This document shows positions 41,746 through 56,749 of a stretch of 64,000 nt of DNA, in pieces (position 1 is the first letter of the stretch; the number at the start of each line of letters is the position of its first letter). Under the pieces are notes generated by a model. That model did not search any database, was not told the origin of the DNA, and saw nothing but the letters and a program-made list of their open reading frames with translations. Both the position numbers and the translations under genes were made by a program. Origin of the DNA: Giardia intestinalis (taxonomy: Eukaryota); NCBI GenBank assembly GCA_000002435.2, contig CM018793.1; one strand, 5' to 3'.

Positions 41746-41862
41746 GTCGGCCACGGCGAATTTCTAGTTATAGAGATTATCGTAAATACTACAGTTGCCT
41801 CTACAGTAAAGTACCTTTGCATCCATAAAAACCTCTAAACTAAAATCAGTAAAAAGGGGACT

Positions 41863-43938
41863 ATGGAGAATTGTTCGCGAGTGTCCTCATATCCAAAGAT
41901 TGCTCACACCTCAACAGATGGCCCCATTACTTATGTTATTGGGCACAAAAATCCAGACAGTGACAGCGTTCTATCCGCCATATCGTATACAGCCCTACTA
42001 AGGCAGCTATACCCGCAGAACTTTTATGTTGCTGCCGCTGCGGGCCCAATCACGGCCCAGACACGCTATATTCTGGACCGCTTCAAGATGGATCATCCGG
42101 AAATAGTTCTAGACATCACGCCCAAGGCCGGTGCGTTTGCACGCCCTAACCTAATAACCATCAACGAGACAGACAGCATAGTCCGCGCCTTGGAGCTTTA
42201 TGCCAAGTTTCAGTTCAAGGTCATCCCCGTGGTGAACGCCGAAGGCTCATTTGGCGGGTTTCTCTCCTTGACGGATATCTTTAGTGCCTTTCTCCGGCCG
42301 CGTACTGAACGAGAACTTCGGATGGTTTATACAAGCGTGGGATCTATCCTGAATGCAGTGAGGGGGAAGTATCTCGGAAAGGTATCCCTTGTGAATGACG
42401 TGCCCACTCACCGGCTCATTTACACGCTCTCTATTAGCTACTCGTCTTTCATCGAGCTCACTGCCTCTATGACCCCTGAAGACTGGAAGATAGGCATCTT
42501 TGTCGTTGGATACCACATAAACATGATTCGATACCTAGTAGAGAAGTCGGCCGGGGTCATAATTATCTCTAAGGAGAGCAAAATCAACCTGATGACCGAT
42601 GATTACCAGGGCATAGACTTCTGTAGCGATTCCGAAAACGATATGGACGACGTTGACAGCCAGAGTCACGAGCTCGGCGTTTGTTTGCATGGAAGCGGCA
42701 TTGGCGACATGGAATCTAGTCGCAACTCTGCTGTGCTGAACGTTTCCTTCTCTGAGGACTCCTCACACATGGTGATTAAGCCAGACGACTGCCTTAATTT
42801 ATCTGGGTACAACAGTTCGTCGCACAATGTTCATGACGCCGGAGAGGTTGCAAGTATTGGCGAGGCCAATCTACACACTTTCAGCAAAAAGCGCAAGGCT
42901 CTTCCTGATGATCTGGTGAAGGCCATAAATGAGTCATCGACCACTGTCATAGTGACCCCGCTTGCAGTGTCCTCTACCACACTTCTAGTGAAACAATCTA
43001 CGCCCATAACAGAATACATCAATCGTGACCAGAGTCTTGTTGTCAACGAAAACGCGAAGCTCTCTGACGTAAGGGCAAAACTCAATACGGCAAAGCACGC
43101 TCATGCTATCTGTGTTGTGGACAAGGCGAACAATCGCCCTATAGGCGTCATCACTAGAATGGATCTCCTCAAGTCTAAGATGCGCAGAGTAATTCTGATG
43201 GACCACAACGAATTTAGCCAGTCCGTTGATGGCATCAAGAGTGATGGAGTGGAAGTTGTGGAGATCGTCGACCATCATCGCCTGGGGACAAACACCACGG
43301 TAACTCCCATTAAGATGACCGTCCGTACAGTTGGGAGTACATGCACTATTGTTGCAGGGATGTACAAGGAGTATGGTATAGTTCCATCAATAGAGGTCGC
43401 TAGCCTCCTTCTCAGTGGGATAATGTGCGACACATTGATCTTGCGGTCTCCTACGACAACGCGAATAGATGTCGTCACAGCCGAACACCTAGCAAAGCTA
43501 ACAGGACTACGAATTCAAGAATTAGGACCCTCAATCTTCAACGCGACATCGCCCTTAGTTAACTGCGAAGATAAAGTGAAGCTTATTAAGACAGACTACA
43601 AACTCTACACAGTTGATGGGACAGATAAAAACATTTCAGTTGCCCAGGTGGAAACAACCTCTTTAGAAGCTCTCACGCCCACTCTAATAAAGGAGCTCCA
43701 GGAAACATTGATGGATTTGCGTAAAGTAGAGAAGCTATGGGCGATTGCCCTTTTGATCACAGACGTAGTTACATCCAACTCTATCCTCATGTGCGAAGGA
43801 CCTATCGAGATAAAGGATGTCATGGGATATCCTAATTATGAAGATTACGACATGCTTTTCGAAATGAAGGGCGTGGTTTCCAGAAAGAAGCAGTTGCTGC
43901 CTCACCTTATGACAGTGCTTCCTCTTGCTGTGAATTGA
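41863..43938 (+). CDS. ppaC-like: family II (Mn-dependent, DHH/DHHA2) inorganic pyrophosphatase with internal CBS-domain pair (CBS-PPase), bacterial-type
   Basis: ATG at 41863 behind aaatcagtaaaaaggggact. DHH motif I VIGHKNPDSDSVLSAISY (Bacillus PpaC LIFGHQNPDTDTICSAIAY). Motifs ILMDHNEFSQS and VVEIVDHHRLG (PpaC LVDHNERQQS, VLEVIDHHRI). GSTCTIVAGMYKEYGI and LLSGIMCDTLILRSPTTT. DHHA2 GVVSRKKQLLP (PpaC GVVSRKKQVVP, 8/8 identical). CBS-like segments and a roughly 110-aa low-complexity linker lie between DHH motifs II and III. Confidence 0.88.
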   Translation: MENCSRVSSYPKIAHTSTDGPITYVIGHKNPDSDSVLSAISYTALLRQLYPQNFYVAAAAGPITAQTRYILDRFKMDHPEIVLDITPKAGAFARPNLITINETDSIVRALELYAKFQFKVIPVVNAEGSFGGFLSLTDIFSAFLRPRTERELRMVYTSVGSILNAVRGKYLGKVSLVNDVPTHRLIYTLSISYSSFIELTASMTPEDWKIGIFVVGYHINMIRYLVEKSAGVIIISKESKINLMTDDYQGIDFCSDSENDMDDVDSQSHELGVCLHGSGIGDMESSRNSAVLNVSFSEDSSHMVIKPDDCLNLSGYNSSSHNVHDAGEVASIGEANLHTFSKKRKALPDDLVKAINESSTTVIVTPLAVSSTTLLVKQSTPITEYINRDQSLVVNENAKLSDVRAKLNTAKHAHAICVVDKANNRPIGVITRMDLLKSKMRRVILMDHNEFSQSVDGIKSDGVEVVEIVDHHRLGTNTTVTPIKMTVRTVGSTCTIVAGMYKEYGIVPSIEVASLLLSGIMCDTLILRSPTTTRIDVVTAEHLAKLTGLRIQELGPSIFNATSPLVNCEDKVKLIKTDYKLYTVDGTDKNISVAQVETTSLEALTPTLIKELQETLMDLRKVEKLWAIALLITDVVTSNSILMCEGPIEIKDVMGYPNYEDYDMLFEMKGVVSRKKQLLPHLMTVLPLAVN

Positions 43939-45841
43939 CACCCTCCTTCTTTTCGAAGACCCTTGAGGTTGTTAATGCGTATATCACTCCCAAAAGTCCG
44001 ACCATTAGGCATGCTCCTATGGTAAATACTATCATTAAGTAGGTCTCTTTGAACACGATCGTGGAGACTTTGTAGGGCACGTCATTAAAGAATATAACTG
44101 CAGAGAGTGTATTGCGGTAGTGCTGAAGACGGATTTCCTTAAGTAGATCCCAACAGTTGAGGCTTTTCGCAGGCATATAGTTTTTGCAAGTTATTGTGAT
44201 ATGTTTTTTCTGATAGAAGTATGTGTCTGGTATCGAAGTTGAGAGATAGAAATCGCCGAGAAGTACTTGGTCCTGGTACGTTTCGGTAAAAGGAAACTGC
44301 TCATAGAACTCCAACCGGATGTCGGTAATAGTGGATGTATAAGCGAGCTTTTCGTCAGTGTTGTTGAGCGCAGATGTGCAGACATTGATCTTTCTATCCT
44401 TTGTGCTCTCAGCCACTAGGTTGTTGATGGCGACAGTGTGAGAATAGTTTGGAAGCAGAAGAGAATAGCACGACGTTGTGGTTGTATACTTTATGAAATC
44501 TCTGAAAAAGAACTGTATGTAATTCGCATAAACAATAAGCTGCGGACGCATAAGGCAAGGAACATAGAGCGTCTTAACGTGGTGCAAAAGGTGAAAGATC
44601 TTTTTATCGCTTGCTTGAAATTTTGTTTGGATTGCGATAATAACGTTATCCATTGTTAGCTCTGTGGCTTTATAAGTATTTGATGTGAAAAACCTTTTCA
44701 GGTCGTACTCTACCCAGAAGACAGTATTGTAAAAGCCCCTGTTGGTACAGCTGGTGCTCAGTATTTGGAGTGGATTAGGCTCTACCGTCAGCTTATCTTG
44801 AAGAGACTCAGACAGATAGGTGTTGTTGTAGAACATTGTTAGGTTGGAACCTATAAGTGTACTTTTCACCGCAGTGTAGCACCAACTGGGCGCGTCGTCA
44901 CGAAAGAAATAATACTGACGCATACACCTGTCCATTATGATACCGTCTGTAGTCCAAAAGCAGGTGTAAACTAGATCAGACTGCGAGCACGAGCCAAACG
45001 ACGAAAAGGAAAGGCTTTGAATGTTGTCATTGTTAATGCTAACATCGCCTTCTTCATGAACAAGATAACCGGTGATATAGTCCAGGCGAATAGTGACGTT
45101 TGGAGTGTATCCATAGATTATAGAAGATGAAATATCGCAGTTTGAGGAGGAAGACACAAGGCTGGTGGTGCAGCTCGCACATACCTGTGTTATTGCCGTA
45201 TGATTATAGTATCTAAGTCCCAAGATGGGATCTGTTTGCAGAAAGTCGTCGTCAAGTGGTATAGTCACCGTCGTCTTATCGCTAATTACCCACGACATTG
45301 TTCCAGTGATGTTGCAAACCATAGGATGCTGCACACGCACGGGTAAGGGGATGTATCGAGGAATGAAGTGCATGCATGTCTTCGAAATGCCAGTAGCCAC
45401 ATCGGAATAGAGTACAAAGTAGGGGTCTGTCCACGACTTAGCCAAGTCATGGACCCGCGATACAGAGTGCAGAATGGGAATGCTGAAACCCTCGTCTTGA
45501 ATGTCCCTCATGAAGGATACGTAGAAAAGTTGAAGACCATCGAGCTCCTGCATACATTCAGGGTTCCCGCCTTCCATAATGTCTGTGCATGTAAAGCGAA
45601 GAGAAACTAGACTAGTAAAGGCTATATTTGTAAGCTCAACAAGAAAGCTCCACGTTCCTGCCTGAAGCCTGACGAGCATTCCGTCCGAGGGGAGGGAACA
45701 GTTGCCAACCTCCGGGACAAATACAATAGTGAGTAGACAGTAGGCAAGATCTTTATAGATGATGAGCTCGGAACTGTTAATTGGACAGAGAGACGAAAGG
45801 ATCCTGACACTAAGAAGAATAATGATAAGACATGCAAGCAT
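43907..45841 (-). CDS. hypothetical type I membrane glycoprotein-like protein (644 aa)
   Basis: ATG at 45841-45839. N-terminal signal peptide MLACLIIILLSVRILSSLC. Many N-x-S/T sites. Single C-terminal TM IVFTIGACLMVGLLGVIYAL, then a short cytosolic tail. The 3' end overlaps the convergent PPase gene by 32 nt. Confidence 0.55.
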   Translation of the reverse strand: MLACLIIILLSVRILSSLCPINSSELIIYKDLAYCLLTIVFVPEVGNCSLPSDGMLVRLQAGTWSFLVELTNIAFTSLVSLRFTCTDIMEGGNPECMQELDGLQLFYVSFMRDIQDEGFSIPILHSVSRVHDLAKSWTDPYFVLYSDVATGISKTCMHFIPRYIPLPVRVQHPMVCNITGTMSWVISDKTTVTIPLDDDFLQTDPILGLRYYNHTAITQVCASCTTSLVSSSSNCDISSSIIYGYTPNVTIRLDYITGYLVHEEGDVSINNDNIQSLSFSSFGSCSQSDLVYTCFWTTDGIIMDRCMRQYYFFRDDAPSWCYTAVKSTLIGSNLTMFYNNTYLSESLQDKLTVEPNPLQILSTSCTNRGFYNTVFWVEYDLKRFFTSNTYKATELTMDNVIIAIQTKFQASDKKIFHLLHHVKTLYVPCLMRPQLIVYANYIQFFFRDFIKYTTTTSCYSLLLPNYSHTVAINNLVAESTKDRKINVCTSALNNTDEKLAYTSTITDIRLEFYEQFPFTETYQDQVLLGDFYLSTSIPDTYFYQKKHITITCKNYMPAKSLNCWDLLKEIRLQHYRNTLSAVIFFNDVPYKVSTIVFKETYLMIVFTIGACLMVGLLGVIYALTTSRVFEKKEGVNSQQEEALS

Positions 45842-45950
45842 TTAGCACCTTGTCTTGATGTCGGTGTACCGGTTCTTTCAGAGCGGCTGCTCCAACCCAG
45901 TGCAAAAGTAGTTGGGCTTTAAAAAGTTTAATTACTCTTCCAGGCGCGCG

Positions 45951-46529
45951 ATGAACCTGGAGGACGTCCTGCGAGAGACACCCATGGAGACGTTAGAGCG
46001 TGTGCGACAGCGGCTTAGACAGGAAAGCACATCCACTAATGCTAAGGGAACCCTACCAAGACCAACCTTCGGCGATGGCACAGGACCTACCAGGGTGGGT
46101 AGTGTGATTGCTGACAGCATGCCAGTTATGCCAGAGATGGATTTAGCCACTATTCTTGAAGCTGCGGGAGTAGATACAACGAAGATGTCCTATGCAGCAG
46201 TTAATCTCGATCAGGGTGAGCGAGATAAGGAGAAGAGGAGCATTCTCACTCTTTCAAGTTTAGAGTACACAGCCGACGCTTTCCCCTTCATGGATGCTGA
46301 TAGCGTCGATGAATCTGTGATGCATCTTACTGCAATGCCCATTAAGAAGCCTACTCCTAAAAGGCGGTCAACACTACCCGCTGCTAGGTCATTTACTTCA
46401 TTGGGAGTGGCAGTCTCGGAGATCTTGAAAAACGTATCTCTCGAGGGCCCTCAGATATACTTTCAAACGTATACTACACTCAAACCATCCAATATATCTA
46501 TTTCAGATTGTGTGGAAGATAGCTTGTAA
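45951..46529 (+). CDS. small hypothetical protein (192 aa)
   Basis: The track start at 45912 is a TTG; the first ATG is 45951 (MNLEDVLRETPMETLERVRQRL...). The initiator context is GC-rich and atypical, hence the low confidence. Confidence 0.35.
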   Translation: MNLEDVLRETPMETLERVRQRLRQESTSTNAKGTLPRPTFGDGTGPTRVGSVIADSMPVMPEMDLATILEAAGVDTTKMSYAAVNLDQGERDKEKRSILTLSSLEYTADAFPFMDADSVDESVMHLTAMPIKKPTPKRRSTLPAARSFTSLGVAVSEILKNVSLEGPQIYFQTYTTLKPSNISISDCVEDSL

Positions 46530-46809
46530 ATTATTTTGACTGTTCATTGACCAAAAGATTAATCGATCGACAGTCATGAAGCAGGCGATAGTGGGATTTG
46601 CTTTAGCTACTTTAACTGTTGTCAGCGCTAAAACATCGGAGACTCCTGTAAGCTAACTCGAGACGCTCACGGCTTTAAAGCAATAGATGCACGAGTGCTC
46701 TGTAGTACTCTGCAATACTGGACTGTTTTCTATATTTTAGCAGGCCGTCTGCGCTGGTTGGTAGTGCGAGTTCTGTGCCCAGTGCCCGCCCCAGCACCTA
46801 GGTGCGGCG

Positions 46810-46895
46810 CGATCTGATGAGAGTAGAAACAAGGCAGAGACAAGTAGTTGGGCAAGATGTGCATCAAGTACTTGAGCTAGTAACAACTGAAGGGG
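46810..46895 (+). ncRNA. weak candidate C/D-box snoRNA-like element in a 400-bp spacer
   Basis: TGATGA (box C-like) at 46815-46820 and CTGA (box D-like) at 46887-46890, about 70 nt apart, inside an unusually long GC-rich intergenic region. No convincing terminal stem. Purely motif-based. Confidence 0.12.
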
Positions 46896-46928
46896 GTATT
46901 TTGCTGAAGCAGAGTAGGTAGATCAGCG

Positions 46929-47510
46929 ATGCCCAGTAAATTTAAAATGGACGATCTACAAAACAGTTACACAAAGTCCCCTCCAAGTGCAAACCGGTCG
47001 ATCAGAAGGCAGCCCAACGCCAGTCTTCACTTGTCCTCAGCGCCCATGACCATGTCTTTAAAGCACGAAATTCGACTCCCAGTGTTGACCAGGGCATACA
47101 CTATACGGTTACAAGAAGAGGCAATGCGAAGAATCAAGAATGGCTTCGTCAGCTTACAGAAGCTGAGACGAGAGCCTCCATACAGAAACACAAAGCAGCA
47201 ACTTGCGAGCTCAGGCGCGATATCAATCTCCGACATTGTGACCAGTCTTACACAAGATCTACTAGATGAATTTATTACTCGTGTATGTAGTGAGGTAACC
47301 ATCTCAATGGACAGACTTCTTGTAGAAATGGGGATCAAGAACGGTCCTCCTCACCTTTCCGGGGCTATTCCTTTGACAGAGACGCTCACGACATCAATGC
47401 TTAACAGCACGGCAACGCTAAGTGGTCCAGGTCTGTCTTTACACCAGGGTCCGTCTCGGATAACACAAAAAGCCTATCCCCATCACAAAGTACCCGCTAG
47501 AAGTAAATGA
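46929..47510 (+). CDS. hypothetical protein (193 aa)
   Basis: ATG at 46929. No domain recognised. Ends 30 nt before the convergent MORN gene stop. Confidence 0.4.
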   Translation: MPSKFKMDDLQNSYTKSPPSANRSIRRQPNASLHLSSAPMTMSLKHEIRLPVLTRAYTIRLQEEAMRRIKNGFVSLQKLRREPPYRNTKQQLASSGAISISDIVTSLTQDLLDEFITRVCSEVTISMDRLLVEMGIKNGPPHLSGAIPLTETLTTSMLNSTATLSGPGLSLHQGPSRITQKAYPHHKVPARSK

Positions 47511-47540
47511 AAAGAACGCAGATTGGGGTGCAGAAGGTAC

Positions 47541-49286: not shown

Positions 49287-52200
49287 TTATGCTAAGCCAG
49301 TCATCTCGATGTCCTCGGCAAAGGTAGAAAGACTATCCAGTACTTTAAGGGTTCGGAGTGTTGGTCTGTCGCAAACCTTCAGAAGTGCACGGCGAGCAAT
49401 TGGAAGTAGGGGCCACGTGGCCAAAATCTGGCTGATCACCAGGAAGAAGGAATCCCGCGGAACATTATCTGCCTTGCAGTAGTCTATGTTTGGGTTTCTA
49501 TATGGCATGGAATTGTCGACAAGGATTCCGATAGCAGTGGAGGCTTGCTGAACGTCTGGCTCGTACGCAGACAGCAAGTAATTACAGTACATGAGTATCT
49601 GTGACTCAAATACGTTGAGCCTTTCTCCACTTCTTAGGCTAGATATCACTACTAGCTCATTGGCGTGGGCGAACTTTTTGTTTCTACGCTGGATCTTCGC
49701 ACCCTCTATGCTAATCTGTTGTATGAATGCATTGATAATATCTTCGTTATCATTATCATGCATTAAATAAAATGCAACCTCTTTTGGTAAAGACCCAATG
49801 AATTTCCGACACAGAGCCTGAAACCTGTCTGTAAGTGATGCAGCCGTAAGTAATTGACCGCTTGGTACCATCTGGCTAGTGGGTTGTTGGAGTCTAGCGT
49901 CTATACTTGCCTTAGAAATAATAATGCCTGCTGTGCAGCCGCATGGCAAATATGCTCGAGGATTAGTAACGTAGCTGTCTGCCTGCATAAGCCTCATGCC
50001 CTTAATTCGCGCTGTCCCCCTAGTAGCCATAATGTGCAGTGGAGTTTTTACGGGGGTGTCTAGTTCATTTGTAGGGGTAGATTGCAGCTTTTTAGGCTGA
50101 TCGTTTTCATCTTTTTGGGGCACCTCTATCAGCCCAAGCGCCTTATACCTCTCTTCAAGCTTGAACGTCCTTAGAACAAAATCCTTGTCATAAATATTCT
50201 CCAAGTTGAGCCAAATGTAATCGACTGCGCTGTCACTAGATAGCTCGACTGGCAAAGGGCTTGTTGTGGTAGTGGTATACTTTAGCAACGTCTTTATTTC
50301 TTCCATCTTCTCGTCTGTAATATTTAGTGATAGAGCAGAAGAAGACTGTTGGTGTACGGGCATCCGTTCTCGAAAATTTAGAGACGACGCGATGCTCATT
50401 CCTATGTTAATGTTTGCACCCGCCATGTTTGCGATATGCAGTGAGGTATCCATCAACATATTGTGTGAGCGTCCCCCAGCATGGTGGTTGTCCTCGTGGG
50501 GGGTCCCGCGAGCATGACTGTTAGCAACAGAGACACCCTCTGTCTGCGTCATTGTTGTGTGACTACTGTGTATGCTCCTGAGGGGGGTCATAATAAAGGT
50601 TTCCACTTCCTCATTTGAAAGGAGTTTGGCACGGTAAAATGTATCAAACAGTTCCACAGGCGGGAGGCATCCGTAAGACTCGCCAGAACGTGATAGACGA
50701 GTGACCTCCCAGCCTAACTTATCAACAAAGTAACTCCTTATACGGGCATTGAGGCAGCAATGGCTTATACAAAGGGTTGCGGTTTGTTTAACCTTATATG
50801 AATCTGAAAAAATTGCCAGATTGTGCAGGAGGTGTAAAAGAAGAGGCGGAAATTTCCAATCGTGCTTGTAGTGGATAAATGATTCATTAGAAGCAGAACA
50901 CTGTGAGGATGTTTCGTAGAGATGAGACGTTGAGCAGCTCGTCTTATTAAATATATTTGAAATCGTTCCTCCTCTATGACTACAAACTGTGTGCATCAGT
51001 TTTCCGCGTGTACTAAGCATGGGGGCGTCGCCAAGGCTTAAGCCTGTAAGCTGGTAGCCGGGAATATTACTGATCAGACCAGTACCCCCGAACGCATTAG
51101 TCATGGAGTTTATTGGGTTCCAATTTGTGACTCCAGACTGTTCTCCCGCGGTGATGAAGCTGCTAGCAACGCTGTGGCATGTATACACCGAATGGATTGA
51201 TTCATCGTCATTACCGTCCAATGTTTCATTACTAATTGAGATAGAATCTTGTCGCAAATAGTTGCATGAGGGATCCAGTGACGCCTTTGCAATTATCTCT
51301 TTGAAGCCTGCCTCTGACTGGGCAATGAAGGCAATTGACCAGAGAGATGCTCTATACTGTAGCGTAAATCGATTTTCTACAGGGTTGAGCAATATCTCCA
51401 TGATTGTCTTGAAGATGCCTGTCTTGATAATCAGCTCACAGCCTTGTGGCGTTTTGGCCAGTTCTGCTAGAAGGCATGGACGGAGGTGGGTAGGTAGAAT
51501 ATTGGACACTCTGTTTCGATGAGAGGAATCCGGACCATTATACTGATTCATATAGTCGCTGAAGAAACCACACGGGTTAGACATGCCCTTATTTAGCCGT
51601 CCGGTCATTGCCTCTGTTGTCAAAAAGGATAGCGCTGAGGCAGGCCTTTCGAAGCCAATCGACGTACTGCTAGCGGTGTCCTTCTCCCTGATCTGTCCAG
51701 TGTTGGCAATGAACAGCTCACGAAACGCAGGTGGCATGTCAATCGACGAGTAGGGCAGATAAAGACTAGACCTTCCTAAACGTGTGTGATGTGGCATCAC
51801 CAAGTGGTCATACATTAGCTCGTCAGCTTTGTAAAAGGTTAATGATGCCGCGTCCCCCCTAACTCTATATGGAATTTTTTCTTGGAAAAAAGCTGGCAAG
51901 GAGTAATTCTGTGCAATTCCCAAATCAATATTCGAGTATATTCTTGCCTCTAGATTAAGGGTCCACTCCATGGCTGGAGCAAGACCATTGGCCCAATATT
52001 CCAGTAGAGGCATAAGAATGTTCTTTTCATCTTTAATGTAATGCAATCCTGCAGGACAGGAAGCCAACCGTTCGATAAGAACCTCTCCTATTCGACCATA
52101 TGTCACAAAAGATGGTTTTAGTGACACTATATATTCAAGAATAAGCACATTCTTTTCAGAACTAAGCTCCTCTAAGGCAATAAGGGCACAGATTGCTATT

Positions 52201-55200
52201 TCGGTAATAGGGTCGCGGCATTGCGCTACCAAACACTCTGCTGCCCAAAAGACATCGTTGAGTGTCTTGAGTTGTATAGAGTGGGACCTGAGATCTACAA
52301 AGTGGTGTTCAAACACAGAGAGGCAGGAAGAACAGAGACACGTAACATTATATTCCTTGAGAAACGTGTGTCTCTGTCTCACCATTGCCGCAATGTGGAA
52401 TGTCGAAAAATATCGCGTGCTAACGTTACTGCTTTTAAGAGCCTCTACCATGCACTCCCGGGACTCTTTGTTCAACTCACTGAATAGGATATTAAAGTGG
52501 TCGGTGGGATCAATATCATGGATTGTCAGCGACTTGTCGGGTGTTGCTCTTTTCTGTTCCACTACACCAGGGCTTAGCATATTTGCCACATTCGTTGATC
52601 CTCCAGTTTCATCCTTATTATCCCTCAAGCTGTGGTTCATGATATCGGCTTTTTCTGAGGTTGACGAATATAGCTCCACGATTCCGGGGAGCAGTGAAGT
52701 TTGGGTAAGTGATGCAGAATAGTTTAGTGACATAACTAAGTGCTGAGCCAATTCTGGTCGTGTATCTTGCTTGATGAGTTGCTTGATTGGCTTCCAAAGA
52801 CTGTCCGTCCGACCAGTTGATAGATTTAATGACGCCATTATATAAAGCCCTAGATCTGTTGATGATAGTACTCCGATCGCAGCAACCGCCCCCAAAGATA
52901 GATTTGCTTTGTAATTTTCCTTTGAGAGTAGCCCTTCATCCTTAGAGGCACTGTCTAAGATGTCATACAGTACCGAAGCAAGCCTTGACTTTCTAATTAA
53001 CGCAATACCTTCCGGGTGGCGCACTAGTAAAGAGAGCATGCCTATGCAAGTTCTGCAGATGTACAGTGTATACTCTGTTACTGGTAGTTCAAATAGAGCG
53101 CCTAACTTAAGGTCGCTGCACTGCTTGTACAGCTCTAAACTCTGCATTTCGGAGCTATCCTGATCTCCACCGATGGATTGCAACAGTAAAGTAGACGGTG
53201 CGGACCCGGGTGTGTACCCAGCAACGATAGGAACAAGCGACTTTGACCCAGCGGCCCCGGTCCTTTCTTCGGTAAATCCTTCTGGTAAGTTAGCCATGGT
53301 TATCGAAGTAGCGGCATCAAGATTGAGCTTCTTGTAGTTAGCACGCTTCAATTTCTGTATCGAGTCATGAGATTGCTTTATAGTTCCATCCATGAAGCTA
53401 AGAATATTTTCAAAAATGGGTGTTACCTTGGTCCACACAGACTTAACTTCTGCCTGTGTTTCTCCTGCATGCCCGAACTGATTGCTGAGGAAACCAATGA
53501 GTGCCGATATTGAGTTCCATCCCCAGTAGCTGGGATAATCGCTGAGTTCTCCTGACTTGAGAAAAGAGTCAATACGAAAGTAATAGAAATCAAAACCAGT
53601 CTTGCACTCAACGGACGAAATCCCTACTCTTAGGCCGCCCTTTGTTGAGGTAAGGTGTACAAACAATTTTTGAATGGCTTGGTCTAAATAGTTAAGACGA
53701 ATTCTATACAATTCTAGATTGATGTGAAGTATTCGCTCCTTCAACATTTTCTTAGCAAACCCGTTGTCATTGATTGCAATGTATGTCTTTATTATATCTG
53801 AAAACTTCAGTTTAGAACGCGTCTCCACAAGCTGACGCAATCGTTCAAACAGACTATCTTCTGAAAGGTTATTTCCATGCCGCTCGAGCTCCTTTTCATG
53901 TATGTAATGGTGAAGGTCAATTTGCTGCTGAGAAAGATTAATCTGATTGACATACTGATTAAAGTATCCTTGAGTAAACACAAATTCGTACATCTCTGCA
54001 TAAATAGAGATCGAGCGCTGGAAATTTAAGAAGGAATTGTATGCAAGAGAGCCTGAGCTGGAGCCTGACCACAGCCTAGAAAGCCCTGTGGTGTTGAGAT
54101 TGGCCTTGCTCTTTTCACACAAGTTGCCAATATAATAGCTGATTAGACTGGATAAAGAGATGATAGGATTAGAGTAAGTTCTTGGGAGTAGCTGGACACA
54201 CTTAGACAGGAAGAGCGTGAGCAGCATGAGAGCAGGTCCGTATGACATAGAGGAATCGGACATTAGCTCCCAGCAGAGCACCTCAACGAGCCCAGCTCTG
54301 GCTAGTGTTATTAAGACCCACATCATGTGGTCTGCTGTGATGTCACTATCGGTGTAGCTACCATAGCTAGACGGACAGCCCAGAGAGGCAAGGTATAGCT
54401 CGTCGATAAACAGGAGTTCTAGCAAGTTAAGTTCTGACGTCACCATACCAGAAAATGAGGCACTCATCGTCATGCTAAAGTTAGGACTGATCTCCATTGC
54501 AAGAGCTGCAAGAGCACCATAGTTAGATGAACTGTACATGTACACATCGCCTAGGCCGGGGCATCCCTTACTGCTATAGCTAGAACGCTGAGCAACAGGA
54601 ACCTCCTGGGATTCAATAACGCTATTGGTCTGGGACGATTCATTAACGAAGTTAGATAGGTACCGCAGATGGCTTGGCTGAAGCTGGGCTGAGGTGTTGG
54701 CTTTCTGCTTGCTGCGCAAAGTCGTTGTGCTCGTTAATAGGTTTCCCTTAGTCTCTGCCAGCCGCAGCCCTGCAGTACTCTTTGTCTGTTGAATTCCCAA
54801 CTTGTTTCCTGGGGAGTTTGACAAGCTTAGCTCAGTCAGCGCAATGGCACTTTGAAATCTATGCAATTCCGTACTAGGATATGTTGTACTATTCTTCAGA
54901 GAAAGGAGCTGTGCTGGACTAACAAACTTTTGCATAAACCGAGATTTAAATATACGTTTATCTCCAAGGATATCAAATAAGAGTTCATAGATAGCTCGCT
55001 TTGTCCCATCGAAGTCTTTGAGCGTTAGAAGATTATTCAATACCCCCTTAAGCCCGCACGGCAGAGACAATAAATATAGAAGGCCGGTATGAGTAGATAG
55101 AAGGCAGTACAAAAGATGTTTAGTGATTTCTGTCCGTGACGAAACTCGAACTGTTTTAGAACCGGACTGGTACTCAAAGTTCTGGGGCTGCTTTTTAAGT

Positions 55201-56690
55201 CGCGCATCAACTGCTTCTTGTCGCACACGGCACATATGAGAGATAAGCTTTTTCCCCACTTGGGTTATGGATGCATCTGCATCATTTGCTAGTGCTGTGG
55301 ATGCTCCAAAGCCACCTGCTTTAAGGGAGGACGGACCTGTGTTGAGACTCCTTTGCTTCTTACCGTGAACATCTGTCTTAGCATGCTTATCAGCGGGGTG
55401 GCCTGGTCGCAAACCCTCACTCACAAAAAACATATCCATGGCTCGTTGCTGCGCTCCATTCTTTTGTCTAATCTCTTCATAGAGAGCAGATTCCCTTTTT
55501 TGTAACTCTTCAATCTGTGCTGACAGGCCAGTGTACTTCTCTATATATGCAGTTTTTGCGGATTGAATCTGCACCAGCTTACTCTCTAACTCTGCTCTCT
55601 TATGATCTTCAATTTGATGAGAATGCTGAGCTGATAGGAGGTCTTTCCGTGTAGTGATCTCCAATTGATGTTTAGAGCTATCATCACCGAGAGTATTTAG
55701 AATTTTCTGATAATTGTGGACAATATGTGACAAATTGCGTATAGAGTTGTTGGTGGAATCGAGCTCTTCGGAAAGTGCAAGCATCATATCGGAAGTGTTC
55801 TGGATTGCTTTTTCAATTGTCTGTCTATTGGACTCCAAAATCCTGAGCTTTAGGGCAACATCATCAAGGTCTCTCTGTATGTCTTCTGCTTCACGTAAAT
55901 ACTCGGTATTGGAGGGTCTATTCTGAGTCTCCTCATCATCATCAGGTATCTCCGTCTTCGTGCATAACGGAACAAGGAGTCTATCTACGTTGTGCTTTAT
56001 TTTTGTGTCCTCTTCAGGGGTTCTTTTGGAGGATATGAGCCTCAGAATAACGGCAGAATTAATATACACTTCGTTAATTCTTTCAGGCTCAGTCAGTTGG
56101 TCAAAGAATACGCGCATGGCAGGCTCTGAATTACTAACTCCATATATAACCATCTGCTGGCATAGCGCCATACACTCTAGTTGCAAAGCATCTGCCTTAT
56201 CCGTGGCAATCGACGCTACGGCATTGATTATTGCTGTAGAAATACCCTTGGGGTCAACCGATATCATAGCGCCTATGCAATCTGTTAGACAGGTGTCTTC
56301 TGTGCTGTGATCTAGACTGTGTATTTCCAAGTGCCGCGCCATTAGAATCTGGCATCCATTCCGCAAAAGGCGTCGGGGAACCTTAGATCCTTCGAAGCAC
56401 AATGCGGTGATAAGCTTAAAAAGCGCTCTTTGAGTAAGACGGTACTGGGTTAACATCAGCGTCCTTATAGCTATGGAAATCTCAGTGGCTGCCTTATTTA
56501 TCTGGTTCTGCAAGTCCTTTGCTGCCGCAGCAGACCTCGTCATCTCCATGGATATGTACTCTATCAAGACGGCAATAGCGTCTGGGAGGACACGAAAATG
56601 CCGGACATTTTCTTCGTATTGCTCAAAGTGTGTGGCATACTGGATCAACGGAGTAAAGTTCTGTTCAAATGGAGTTAGATCATAAGTCAT
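49287..56690 (-). CDS. giant hypothetical protein (about 2467 aa), alpha-helical with a central coiled-coil segment
   Basis: One uninterrupted 7.4-kb frame. The track start is a TTG at 56702; the first ATG is 56690 (MTYDLTPFEQ...). A coiled-coil stretch appears around residues 260-420 (LDDVALKLRILESNRQTIEKAIQNTSDMMLALSEELDSTNNSIRNL...). No catalytic motif recognised. The stop is followed by TAAGTAAAAT. Confidence 0.6.
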   Translation of the reverse strand: MTYDLTPFEQNFTPLIQYATHFEQYEENVRHFRVLPDAIAVLIEYISMEMTRSAAAAKDLQNQINKAATEISIAIRTLMLTQYRLTQRALFKLITALCFEGSKVPRRLLRNGCQILMARHLEIHSLDHSTEDTCLTDCIGAMISVDPKGISTAIINAVASIATDKADALQLECMALCQQMVIYGVSNSEPAMRVFFDQLTEPERINEVYINSAVILRLISSKRTPEEDTKIKHNVDRLLVPLCTKTEIPDDDEETQNRPSNTEYLREAEDIQRDLDDVALKLRILESNRQTIEKAIQNTSDMMLALSEELDSTNNSIRNLSHIVHNYQKILNTLGDDSSKHQLEITTRKDLLSAQHSHQIEDHKRAELESKLVQIQSAKTAYIEKYTGLSAQIEELQKRESALYEEIRQKNGAQQRAMDMFFVSEGLRPGHPADKHAKTDVHGKKQRSLNTGPSSLKAGGFGASTALANDADASITQVGKKLISHMCRVRQEAVDARLKKQPQNFEYQSGSKTVRVSSRTEITKHLLYCLLSTHTGLLYLLSLPCGLKGVLNNLLTLKDFDGTKRAIYELLFDILGDKRIFKSRFMQKFVSPAQLLSLKNSTTYPSTELHRFQSAIALTELSLSNSPGNKLGIQQTKSTAGLRLAETKGNLLTSTTTLRSKQKANTSAQLQPSHLRYLSNFVNESSQTNSVIESQEVPVAQRSSYSSKGCPGLGDVYMYSSSNYGALAALAMEISPNFSMTMSASFSGMVTSELNLLELLFIDELYLASLGCPSSYGSYTDSDITADHMMWVLITLARAGLVEVLCWELMSDSSMSYGPALMLLTLFLSKCVQLLPRTYSNPIISLSSLISYYIGNLCEKSKANLNTTGLSRLWSGSSSGSLAYNSFLNFQRSISIYAEMYEFVFTQGYFNQYVNQINLSQQQIDLHHYIHEKELERHGNNLSEDSLFERLRQLVETRSKLKFSDIIKTYIAINDNGFAKKMLKERILHINLELYRIRLNYLDQAIQKLFVHLTSTKGGLRVGISSVECKTGFDFYYFRIDSFLKSGELSDYPSYWGWNSISALIGFLSNQFGHAGETQAEVKSVWTKVTPIFENILSFMDGTIKQSHDSIQKLKRANYKKLNLDAATSITMANLPEGFTEERTGAAGSKSLVPIVAGYTPGSAPSTLLLQSIGGDQDSSEMQSLELYKQCSDLKLGALFELPVTEYTLYICRTCIGMLSLLVRHPEGIALIRKSRLASVLYDILDSASKDEGLLSKENYKANLSLGAVAAIGVLSSTDLGLYIMASLNLSTGRTDSLWKPIKQLIKQDTRPELAQHLVMSLNYSASLTQTSLLPGIVELYSSTSEKADIMNHSLRDNKDETGGSTNVANMLSPGVVEQKRATPDKSLTIHDIDPTDHFNILFSELNKESRECMVEALKSSNVSTRYFSTFHIAAMVRQRHTFLKEYNVTCLCSSCLSVFEHHFVDLRSHSIQLKTLNDVFWAAECLVAQCRDPITEIAICALIALEELSSEKNVLILEYIVSLKPSFVTYGRIGEVLIERLASCPAGLHYIKDEKNILMPLLEYWANGLAPAMEWTLNLEARIYSNIDLGIAQNYSLPAFFQEKIPYRVRGDAASLTFYKADELMYDHLVMPHHTRLGRSSLYLPYSSIDMPPAFRELFIANTGQIREKDTASSTSIGFERPASALSFLTTEAMTGRLNKGMSNPCGFFSDYMNQYNGPDSSHRNRVSNILPTHLRPCLLAELAKTPQGCELIIKTGIFKTIMEILLNPVENRFTLQYRASLWSIAFIAQSEAGFKEIIAKASLDPSCNYLRQDSISISNETLDGNDDESIHSVYTCHSVASSFITAGEQSGVTNWNPINSMTNAFGGTGLISNIPGYQLTGLSLGDAPMLSTRGKLMHTVCSHRGGTISNIFNKTSCSTSHLYETSSQCSASNESFIHYKHDWKFPPLLLHLLHNLAIFSDSYKVKQTATLCISHCCLNARIRSYFVDKLGWEVTRLSRSGESYGCLPPVELFDTFYRAKLLSNEEVETFIMTPLRSIHSSHTTMTQTEGVSVANSHARGTPHEDNHHAGGRSHNMLMDTSLHIANMAGANINIGMSIASSLNFRERMPVHQQSSSALSLNITDEKMEEIKTLLKYTTTTTSPLPVELSSDSAVDYIWLNLENIYDKDFVLRTFKLEERYKALGLIEVPQKDENDQPKKLQSTPTNELDTPVKTPLHIMATRGTARIKGMRLMQADSYVTNPRAYLPCGCTAGIIISKASIDARLQQPTSQMVPSGQLLTAASLTDRFQALCRKFIGSLPKEVAFYLMHDNDNEDIINAFIQQISIEGAKIQRRNKKFAHANELVVISSLRSGERLNVFESQILMYCNYLLSAYEPDVQQASTAIGILVDNSMPYRNPNIDYCKADNVPRDSFFLVISQILATWPLLPIARRALLKVCDRPTLRTLKVLDSLSTFAEDIEMTGLA

Positions 56691-56749
56691 AGACCTACCC
56701 AAATAATTTACAAGGGTGAGCTAGGTAGAGAGTTAATTCTCTTGAGATT

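What the first reader, a model, noticed from the sequence alone, without database searches (positions are those of the whole stretch)
41863..43938. A bacterial-type family II (DHH/DHHA2) pyrophosphatase with CBS regulatory inserts, encoded in a eukaryote
The ORF carries all hallmark family II PPase motifs: GHxNPDxDS, DHNE, DHHR, and an 8/8 identical DHHA2 GVVSRKKQ. Family II PPases are essentially bacterial; eukaryotes normally use family I enzymes. The catalytic DHH domain is split by CBS-like segments plus a roughly 110-aa low-complexity linker (residues about 230-340) that bacterial CBS-PPases lack. This makes it a candidate lateral gene transfer, likely adenine-nucleotide regulated, with a lineage-specific insertion. 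I recall that Giardia and Entamoeba have been cited as rare eukaryotic carriers of this family, so the gene is probably annotated. The long linker and its effect on regulation are unlikely to have been characterised.
Basis: partly seen in the sequence, partly recalled or inferred. Interest (0 to 1): 0.6.

Follow-up and report, generated by a model that had tools for sequence, protein, structure and literature searches.

The report
Giardia's nucleotide-regulated bacterial-type pyrophosphatase gene
This is the already-annotated Giardia intestinalis gene for a bacterial-type (family II, CBS-domain) inorganic pyrophosphatase; it looks catalytically intact, and its one unusual feature is a roughly 100-residue disordered acidic loop inserted into a badly eroded regulatory (DRTGG) domain.

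Summary
Window 41863-43938 (+) is a 691-aa ORF with every family II PPase motif, two CBS domains and a DHHA2 domain. It is an exact match to Giardia intestinalis WB XP_001709297.1 / UniProt A8B5T0, named "putative Mn-dependent inorganic pyrophosphatase". CBS-PPases in Giardia are already in the literature (PMC11210485, citing Baykov 2017), so the core finding is known.

What I add:
- The "linker" (aa ~237-346, predicted disordered, Ser/Asp-rich, net charge -12) is an insertion inside a diverged DRTGG domain. Pfam misses that domain, but profile-profile and fold comparison recover it.
- All catalytic residues are intact here. A second Giardia paralog lineage, which includes at least one of the accessions cited in the literature, has lost metal and substrate ligands.
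- The family is not Giardia-specific. It forms a 100%-bootstrap clade with Spironucleus, Hexamita and unnamed relatives. The metamonad Barthelona joins at 90%, with no insert and a detectable DRTGG.
- The gene's composition matches its neighbours, and the prokaryotic donor is unresolved.

So any transfer was ancient. PPase activity and nucleotide regulation are inferred, not shown. Interest is low to moderate.

The parts
41863..43938 (+). Complete ORF, 691 aa plus stop: Giardia intestinalis WB CBS-domain family II inorganic pyrophosphatase (XP_001709297.1 / A8B5T0)
41920..42093 (+). N-terminal part of the DHH catalytic domain (aa 20-77), with motif GHKNPDSDS (H28, D32, D34 metal ligands)
   Evidence: the first 17 aa are predicted disordered
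42094..42312 (+). CBS1 (aa ~78-150), with the G-h-h-S-x-x-D ribose/phosphate motif GFLSLTD (aa 132-138)
42313..42570 (+). N-terminal half of the diverged DRTGG domain (aa ~151-236). Name motifs are eroded: GDR to GYH, T(GG) to S(KE)
   Evidence: (hhalign 97.6%, E 3.5e-12)
42571..42900 (+). Diplomonad-specific insertion (aa 237-346). Acidic, Ser/Asp-rich, predicted disordered (pLDDT <50 for aa 244-341), ends in KKRK
42901..43017 (+). C-terminal half of the diverged DRTGG domain (aa 347-385)
43018..43182 (+). CBS2 (aa ~386-440), motif GVITRMD (aa 428-434)
43183..43542 (+). C-terminal part of the DHH domain (aa 441-560): DHNE (D447), DHH (H471, H472), GSTCT, D523
43543..43935 (+). DHHA2 substrate-binding domain (aa 561-691): K580, GVVSRKKQ (R674, K675, K676)
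41755..41862 (.). 108-nt intergenic region shared with the divergent upstream ORF. An A-rich tract lies directly before the ATG. A promoter role is inferred only
   Evidence: sequence; no functional test

Best explanation
The gene encodes Giardia's catalytically competent soluble inorganic pyrophosphatase of the CBS-PPase subfamily of family II (DHH/DHHA2) enzymes.

Catalysis (inferred from homology): a binuclear Mn2+/Co2+ centre held by H28, D32, D34, D447, H471 and D523 in the DHH domain activates water. The DHHA2 domain (K580, R674, K675, K676, plus H472) closes over PPi.

Regulation (inferred): a ~360-aa regulatory module (CBS1, DRTGG, CBS2) is inserted in the DHH domain at the same point as in bacterial CBS-PPases. 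In those enzymes the CBS pair binds AMP/ADP (inhibiting) or ATP (activating). The conserved CBS ribose/phosphate motifs suggest this is retained here. From my own knowledge, Giardia uses PPi-dependent PFK and PPDK, so such control could spare PPi when energy charge is low.

DRTGG and insert: the DRTGG domain keeps its fold but has lost most residues conserved in bacteria. It carries a ~100-aa disordered acidic loop that evolves fast but is still under purifying selection. In bacteria only DRTGG-containing enzymes respond to diadenosine polyphosphates, so the Ap4A response here is doubtful. The loop is most likely a tolerated or regulatory disordered region, possibly a phosphorylation target.

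Origin: the gene belongs to an old clade spanning diplomonads and Barthelona, nested among prokaryotic CBS-PPases. This is consistent with one ancient prokaryote-to-metamonad transfer.
For: - Family assignment: Pfam DHH/CBS x2/DHHA2. NCBIfam CBS-PPase equivalog above cutoff. Best solved relatives are family II PPases at E 2.8e-44 by sequence and ~1e-23 by fold with 29-35% identity.
- Catalytic residues: all of those listed above are retained. Overall, of the positions at least 90% conserved in 112 bacterial sequences, 52/64 in the DHH domain and 18/23 in DHHA2 are kept.
- Regulatory module: same insertion point and full-length colinearity with bacterial CBS-PPases. After splicing out the insert, it aligns in one stretch to C. 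perfringens 3L2B/3L31 (E 1.7e-5). The model superimposes on 3L31 with TM 0.84. hhalign of the DRTGG segment gives 97.6%, E 3.5e-12. CBS motifs GFLSLTD and GVITRMD are present.
- Insert: disordered. pN 0.113 against pS 0.80, compared with folded-domain pN 0.043. Present at the same site in Giardia, Spironucleus and an unnamed relative (49-228 aa across two alignments), but short (9-12 aa) in the sampled Hexamita copies and in the second Spironucleus copy.
- Bacterial regulatory behaviour, and the dependence of Ap4A activation on DRTGG: bioRxiv 10.1101/2020.04.07.028951.
- Eukaryotic context and composition.
- Clade: NJ bootstrap 100 for diplomonads, 90 with Barthelona.
Against: - No biochemical data for this protein were found. 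Activity, metal preference and nucleotide regulation are all inferred.
- Pfam's DRTGG model does not detect the domain even after the insert is removed, and only 4 of 20 bacterially conserved DRTGG residues survive.
- The AlphaFold model was built from an alignment dominated by bacterial CBS-PPases, so its agreement with 3L31 is partly circular.
- The phylogeny is neighbour-joining on corrected p-distances only. The position of the eukaryotic clade among prokaryotes is unsupported (36% or less).
- Whether Giardia has another PPase (family I or membrane-bound) was not tested.
Confidence: 0.8

Rival explanations
1. It is a DHH-family enzyme with a different substrate (exopolyphosphatase like yeast PPX1 or prune, or an NrnA/GdpP-type nanoRNase or cyclic-dinucleotide phosphodiesterase), not a pyrophosphatase.
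For: These families share the DHH/DHHA2 fold, and they appear in the fold search (PPX1 E 1.9e-11; NrnA/GdpP ~1e-9). No enzymatic data exist for this protein.
Against: Family II PPases score far better by sequence (E 1e-44 to 1e-32) and by fold (E ~1e-23, 29-35% identity, against 13-17% for PPX1/NrnA). The family II-specific SRKKQ signature, K580 and H472 are intact. A CBS-PPase equivalog model passes its curated cutoff.
Confidence: 0.04
2. It is an active PPase, but the regulatory module no longer senses adenine nucleotides. With DRTGG eroded and split by a disordered loop, the module serves only as an oligomerisation scaffold, or regulation has moved to phosphorylation of the loop or to pairing with the degenerate paralog.
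For: 16 of 20 bacterially conserved DRTGG residues are lost, and Pfam cannot detect the domain. Several bacterially conserved CBS1 residues also differ (V85I, V89A, D91A, R119K). Paralogs with degraded active sites coexist with an intact copy in several of these genomes. In bacteria only DRTGG-containing enzymes respond to Ap4A.
Against: Both CBS domains score well above the Pfam cutoff and keep the G-h-h-S/T-x-x-D motifs. Bacterial CBS-PPases that lack DRTGG altogether are still regulated by AMP/ADP/ATP. The module is modelled with high confidence.
Confidence: 0.2
3. The gene was not acquired by lateral transfer into metamonads. It is either an ancient eukaryotic gene lost from most lineages, or it spread between eukaryotes.
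For: Composition is indistinguishable from neighbouring genes. It is shared by Giardia, Spironucleus, Hexamita and Barthelona. Other protists and green algae are reported to have CBS-PPases (PMC11210485 citing Baykov 2017). No donor has bootstrap support.
Against: Every nearest non-metamonad relative I examined is prokaryotic by name or gene neighbourhood. No other eukaryote ranked above prokaryotes in two word-indexed searches and one exhaustive search. The family is overwhelmingly prokaryotic.
Confidence: 0.15
4. The ORF is bacterial contamination, or the 'insert' is untranslated sequence (an intron or an assembly artefact).
For: Bacterial-type protein; Giardia does have a few introns.
Against: It is flanked on both sides by Giardia-type genes on one contiguous sequence, with synteny conserved in assemblage B. 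The identical protein is recorded on 143 contigs. The insert is in frame and open in every lineage, and its nonsynonymous change is far below synonymous change (pN 0.11 against pS 0.80).
Confidence: 0.01

Closest known systems
Bacterial CBS-PPases with a DRTGG domain (e.g. Clostridium perfringens cpPPase, regulatory part PDB 3L2B/3L31; Desulfitobacterium hafniense dhPPase)
   Same: Same domain order: DHH(N), CBS1, DRTGG, CBS2, DHH(C), DHHA2, with the module inserted at the same point. It is 34-39% identical to the closest Desulfuromonadales and Opitutaceae sequences over the aligned C-terminal half (~49% of the query). All catalytic residues are kept, and the regulatory module superimposes on 3L31 with TM 0.84.
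   Different: A ~106-110-aa disordered acidic insertion sits inside DRTGG, where prokaryotes have at most 4 aa (one exception of 29). The DRTGG hallmark residues are lost (R218H, T236S, D368A, W374L, R377K). It is encoded in a eukaryote. The Ap4A response is therefore uncertain.
Canonical family II PPase (PpaC; B. subtilis 1K23, S. mutans 1I74, S. gordonii 1WPP)
   Same: Catalytic DHH and DHHA2 domains, metal ligands and the SRKKQ signature. Best solved matches by sequence and by fold.
   Different: The canonical enzymes are ~310 aa with no regulatory module.
The second Giardia CBS-PPase paralog (assemblage B V6U0W2 / EES98417.1; G. muris P0008). By its 670-aa length the review's XP_001709328.2 probably belongs here, but I did not retrieve it.
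   Same: Same architecture, including an insert at the same DRTGG site. 34-36% identical. In assemblage B it lies 14 accession numbers away on the same contig.
   Different: The paralog has H28R, D32N, K580L/T, Q595E, E597Q/S and D634N/H, and in G. muris SRKKQ has become SKNNQ. It is probably catalytically impaired, whereas the window gene is intact.
Yeast PPX1 / prune exopolyphosphatases (eukaryotic DHH clade)
   Same: DHH/DHHA2 fold.
   Different: Only 16-17% identity, E 1.9e-11 against ~1e-23 for PPases. No CBS/DRTGG module, and a different DHHA2 signature.

Membership tests
Family II inorganic pyrophosphatase (DHH/DHHA2, PpaC type) | DHH-domain metal-binding motifs (H-x3-D-x-D; D in DHNE; DHH; D in GxxSDT, B. 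subtilis H9/D13/D15/D75/H97/H98/D149) | tested here: met
   H28, D32, D34, D447, H471, H472 and D523 are all present. The mapping to B. subtilis numbering is from memory of the family.
Family II inorganic pyrophosphatase (DHH/DHHA2, PpaC type) | DHHA2 domain with the SRKKQ signature and the conserved Lys (B. subtilis K205, R295, K296) | tested here: met
   Pfam DHHA2 1.4e-13; K580 and GVVSRKKQ at 670-677.
Family II inorganic pyrophosphatase (DHH/DHHA2, PpaC type) | Closest relatives by sequence and fold are experimentally characterised family II PPases, not other DHH enzymes | tested here: met
   PDB phmmer 2.8e-44 to 1I74. Foldseek ~1e-23 to PPases against 1.9e-11 to PPX1 and ~1e-9 to NrnA/GdpP.
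Family II inorganic pyrophosphatase (DHH/DHHA2, PpaC type) | Mn2+/Co2+-dependent hydrolysis of PPi | not testable with these tools
   No biochemical report found.
CBS-PPase subfamily | Regulatory insert placed within the DHH domain between motif I and the DHNE motif | tested here: met
   Colinear alignment with 112 bacterial CBS-PPases. NCBIfam NF011443 scores 369 bits against a cutoff of 335.
CBS-PPase subfamily | Two CBS domains forming a Bateman module | tested here: met
   Pfam CBS, two stretches, 54 bits against a cutoff of 24. The module is modelled at pLDDT >90 and matches 3L31.
CBS-PPase subfamily | DRTGG domain between the CBS domains (present in most, not all, members) | tested here: inconclusive
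   The Pfam PF07085 model finds nothing, even after the insert is removed, and 16/20 conserved residues are lost. However, hhalign gives 97.6%, E 3.5e-12 against the bacterial DRTGG segment, phmmer aligns across it to 3L2B, and fold TM is 0.84. Conclusion: homologous but strongly diverged.
CBS-PPase subfamily | Allosteric regulation by AMP/ADP/ATP, and by Ap4A in DRTGG-containing forms; homotetramer | not testable with these tools
   Properties of the bacterial enzymes are taken from bioRxiv 10.1101/2020.04.07.028951. Here only the CBS ribose/phosphate motifs could be checked, and they are present.

The most novel reading that the evidence does not exclude
Diplomonads may run a two-component PPi-control system. 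One part is a catalytically intact CBS-PPase (this gene). The other is one or more paralogs with degraded active sites that co-assemble with it into hetero-oligomers. The disordered acidic Ser-rich loop in the eroded DRTGG domain would replace bacterial Ap4A/DRTGG signalling with eukaryotic-style control such as phosphorylation, gating the PPi pool that feeds PPi-dependent glycolysis.
Probability: 0.12. Interest if true: 0.55.

Novelty: already known. Interest (0 to 1): 0.27.

Why it matters
From my own knowledge, Giardia's glycolysis uses PPi as an energy donor (PPi-PFK, PPDK), so the enzyme that destroys PPi has to be tightly controlled. A nucleotide-gated bacterial-type PPase with no human counterpart is a plausible drug target. 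The practical value of this check is threefold. First, this gene (A8B5T0, whose orthologs in other strains are labelled only "DHHA2 domain protein") carries the complete catalytic set. By contrast, at least one of the Giardia accessions cited in the literature (V6U0W2, and probably XP_001709328.2 and V6TM56) belongs to a paralog lineage that has lost metal ligands. Second, the unusual loop interrupts a degenerate DRTGG domain. Third, the family is old and spans diplomonads, with a relative in Barthelona. None of this changes the basic, already published fact that Giardia has CBS-type family II PPases.

Tried and rejected
- Looked for the paralog inside the window by tblastn: absent.
- Pfam DRTGG on the protein with the insert spliced out: no hit. 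The only signal was a weak Hpr_kinase_N match (E 0.083), at the position where a bacterial control hits the same model.
- Synteny between the window and the P0005 and P0007 contigs: none beyond the gene itself.
- Compositional signal of recent transfer: none. GC 0.477 against 0.480 +/- 0.029 and GC3 0.543 against 0.489 +/- 0.050.
- Donor identification: Desulfuromonadales are the best-scoring hits for both Giardia and Barthelona, but no prokaryotic sister group has NJ bootstrap above 36%. The two nearest sequences I checked come from unnamed bacterial MAGs.
- dN/dS for the insert: synonymous sites are saturated between assemblages, so only pN and pS are reported.
- Literature on measured PPase activity or characterisation of this protein: nothing found. 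A mitosome proteomics table lists GL50803_8163 "Mn-dependent PPase" from a single peptide; I could not link that ID to this gene.
- The WB copy of the paralog (XP_001709328.2) was not retrieved by any search, and V6TM56 was never retrieved. Their status is inferred from assemblage B (P0179) and from P0007, which is 84% identical to P0179.
- A paper search for GCA_040285745 found nothing. The organism name came instead.
- That GCA_000497125.2 is the Spironucleus salmonicida assembly (used to label P0200) is from memory, not a tool result.
Full report
OBSERVATION. Window 41863-43938 (+) is a single ATG-initiated ORF of 691 codons. Pfam finds DHH (5.1e-17), CBS (1.7e-14, two stretches) and DHHA2 (1.4e-13), all above their gathering scores, but no DRTGG. 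The NCBIfam equivalog NF011443, "putative manganese-dependent inorganic diphosphatase" (the CBS-containing form), scores 369 bits against a cutoff of 335. The best solved relatives are family II PPases from Streptococcus, Bacillus and Staphylococcus (E 2.8e-44 to 1e-32).

IDENTITY AND CONTEXT. The protein is an exact match to Giardia intestinalis WB XP_001709297.1 / KAE8305116.1 / UniProt A8B5T0, "putative Manganese-dependent inorganic pyrophosphatase", recorded on 143 contigs. The window is unmistakably Giardia chromosome. It holds Vps35, many ankyrin-repeat proteins, an ankyrin-repeat kinase, a MORN-repeat protein, two VSP genes, CFAP91, the DNA primase large subunit, a RICTOR-like protein and a proteasome subunit. 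The left flank and the overlapping convergent gene on the right are syntenic in assemblage B. The gene's GC (0.477) and GC3 (0.543) lie within about one SD of the 27 ORFs of at least 200 aa in the window (0.480 +/- 0.029 and 0.489 +/- 0.050). Contamination and recent transfer are therefore excluded.

ANATOMY. A full-length alignment with bacterial CBS-PPases is colinear from end to end. Between CBS1 (aa ~78-150) and CBS2 (~386-440), the bacterial proteins have a ~120-aa DRTGG domain. In the Giardia protein, aa ~151-236 align to the first half of that domain and aa 347-385 to the second half. The 106-110 residues in between have no bacterial counterpart.

Three independent checks support this reading:
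- With the insert spliced out, phmmer aligns the regulatory region in one stretch (spliced-query residues 40-256; the query began at native aa 78) to residues 37-241 of the C. perfringens regulatory fragment 3L2B/3L31 (E 1.7e-5).
- hhalign of a Giardia-only profile of the spliced segment against a bacteria-only profile of the DRTGG segment gives 97.6% probability, E 3.5e-12 over 116 columns.
- The AlphaFold2 model (mean pLDDT 82.8, pTM 0.75) folds everything confidently except aa 1-17 and 244-341, and its regulatory part superimposes on 3L31 with TM 0.84.

The caveat on the last point is that the model's alignment is mostly bacterial CBS-PPases, so the agreement is partly circular. Pfam's DRTGG model still fails on the spliced sequence. 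Only 4 of the 20 DRTGG positions that are at least 90% conserved in bacteria survive (R218H, T236S, D368A, W374L, R377K and others). The domain is therefore homologous but heavily eroded.

THE INSERT. It is Ser 17% / Asp 12% with net charge -12, and its sequence complexity is only mildly reduced. An insert occupies the same site in all eight Giardia-lineage sequences (49-165 aa), in Spironucleus (76 aa) and in two tandem genes of an unnamed relative (143 and 228 aa). It is short in the sampled Hexamita copies and in the second Spironucleus copy (9-12 aa), and at most 4 aa in about 145 prokaryotic representatives, with one exception of 29. It diverges two to four times faster than the folded parts: 82% against 93% identity to assemblage B, and 27% against 56% to G. 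muris. It is still translated and constrained. Between assemblages A and B, pN is 0.113 against pS 0.80 in the insert, compared with pN 0.043 in the folded domains. Synonymous sites are saturated, so no formal dN/dS is given.

CATALYTIC COMPETENCE AND THE PARALOG. All metal and substrate ligands expected of a family II PPase are present: H28, D32, D34, D447, H471, H472, D523, K580, R674, K675 and K676. A second lineage of Giardia proteins carries H28R, D32N, K580L/T, Q595E, E597Q/S and D634N/H, and in G. muris SKNNQ replaces SRKKQ. This lineage includes P0179 (assemblage B EES98417.1 / KWX15689.1 / V6U0W2), P0007, and P0008 (G. muris). It is probably catalytically impaired; that is an inference from what is known about these ligands. 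The paralog is not in this window. In assemblage B it lies 14 accession numbers away on the same contig.

The pairing of an intact copy with one or more degraded copies also appears in G. muris, in Spironucleus and in the unnamed SRR31929897 organism. Both Hexamita representatives that I sampled are degraded.

The Giardia identifiers quoted in the literature are V6U0W2, V6TM56 and XP_001709328.2 (670 aa). V6U0W2 is confirmed as a member of the paralog cluster. The other two probably belong there as well, judged by length and annotation, but I did not retrieve them. The orthologs of the window gene in those strains are named only "Putative DHHA2 domain protein" (V6TAW3, V6U094).

PHYLOGENETIC POSITION. 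Two word-indexed searches and one exhaustive HMMER search were run. The exhaustive search gave 502 representatives below 1e-30. After the Giardia sequences, the best hits are Spironucleus salmonicida V6LU25, Hexamita inflata proteins and unnamed diplomonad-like sequences, followed by prokaryotes. Labelling P0200 as a second Spironucleus copy rests on my memory that GCA_000497125.2 is the S. salmonicida assembly.

A neighbour-joining tree (537 columns, 161 sequences, 200 bootstraps) groups all of the diplomonad-lineage sequences at 100%. It adds P0197, a protein of Barthelona sp. PCE (Metamonada incertae sedis), at 90%. P0197 sits on a 2.2-Mb contig among eukaryotic genes, has no insert, and keeps a DRTGG domain that Pfam detects.

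Beyond that node nothing is supported (36% or less). The two nearest sequences I checked have bacterial gene neighbourhoods. Desulfuromonadales are the top-scoring prokaryotes for both Giardia and Barthelona, which is a hint and not a result. The simplest reading is one ancient acquisition in an ancestor of diplomonads, possibly shared with Barthelona. DRTGG erosion and the loop insertion would have followed in the diplomonad stem, and then repeated duplication with active-site decay. Vertical descent with massive loss, or eukaryote-to-eukaryote spread, is not excluded.

MECHANISM. Shown here: family membership, intact catalytic residues, an intact CBS pair with G-h-h-S/T-x-x-D motifs, a diverged DRTGG, and a disordered insert. 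[quoted passage not shown] Because the DRTGG domain here is eroded and interrupted, I consider Ap4A control doubtful and mononucleotide control likely. From my own knowledge, Giardia uses PPi-dependent PFK and PPDK, which gives a rationale for throttling PPase when energy charge is low. That link is an inference.

COMPARISON WITH WHAT IS KNOWN. Giardia CBS-type family II PPases are reported in the literature. The 2024 PeerJ review (PMC11210485) cites Baykov et al. 2017 for Giardia and a list of other protists and green algae. [quoted passage not shown] No experimental work on any Giardia PPase was found. The finding is therefore already known in substance. The details added here are the loop's position inside a degenerate DRTGG, intact against degraded paralogs, the spread across diplomonads with a Barthelona relative, and constraint on the loop. 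These are refinements.

VERDICT. Novelty: already known. Interest: about 0.27.

Noticed in passing
window 43907-43938 (also L008 12063-12094 and L009 5039-5070): The PPase 3' end overlaps the 3' end of the convergent ORF 43907-45841 (-) by exactly 32 nt. The same 32-nt overlap is kept in assemblage B and in a third lineage. No AGTRAA polyadenylation-like motif was found on the + strand within 43901-44060.
   Followed up: partly
window 15804-18257 (-) and 18899-20377 (-): Two variant-specific surface protein (VSP) genes (Pfam PF03302, E 2.3e-41 and 1.4e-86). They account for the GC-rich patch at 16-22 kb (GC 0.51-0.565 against ~0.47 elsewhere).
   Followed up: partly
window ~46530-47540; L008 14700-22094: Gene order between assemblage A (this window) and assemblage B is conserved to the left of the PPase and through the ~200-aa ORF 45912-46529, then breaks. 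The window's MORN and RICTOR-like genes have no match in the assemblage B flank, and that flank's PP2C, kinase and cytochrome-b5 genes have no match in the window. This is either a rearrangement or an assembly difference.
   Followed up: partly
window 49287-56702 (-): A 2471-aa ORF with RICTOR_M (7.8e-11) and RICTOR RasGEF_N_2 (3.6e-10) Pfam hits, making it a candidate TORC2 RICTOR homologue in Giardia.
   Followed up: no
outside the window: P0179 (G. intestinalis assemblage B V6U0W2), P0007, P0008 (G. muris), P0200 (Spironucleus, assembly identity from memory), P0184/P0188 (Hexamita), P0182: Diplomonad genomes carry additional CBS-PPase paralogs with degraded active sites (H28R, D32N, K580 lost, SRKKQ altered) next to an intact copy. 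These are possible pseudoenzyme partners. At least one of the Giardia accessions cited in the literature (V6U0W2) belongs to this degraded lineage.
   Followed up: partly
L004 6001-7779 (Barthelona sp. PCE, GCA_040285745.1): A metamonad outside the diplomonads encodes a CBS-PPase with no insert and a Pfam-detectable DRTGG. It groups with the diplomonad clade at NJ bootstrap 90. SRKKQ reads SRKLQ, and the motif I histidine column is a gap in my alignment, which may reflect a gene-model or alignment problem.
   Followed up: partly
L005 4381-6957 and 7182-9422 (Logan SRR31929897): Two CBS-PPase genes lie in tandem (858 and 746 aa) with very long inserts (228 and 143 aa). They come from the same sample, at ~57% GC, that also yields P0005. 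The second copy has lost SRKKQ.
   Followed up: no
L008 10001-10018 (assemblage B gene model KWX15675.1 / P0001): The annotated assemblage B protein starts 6 codons upstream, at a Leu codon. The Met that aligns with the WB start follows it. The 697-aa length is probably an annotation artefact.
   Followed up: partly
window aa 342-345 of the PPase (nt 42886-42897): A basic KKRK patch closes the acidic insert. It is conserved as RKRK, KKRK or RKHR in other G. intestinalis-complex sequences but not in G. muris. Its function is unknown.
   Followed up: no
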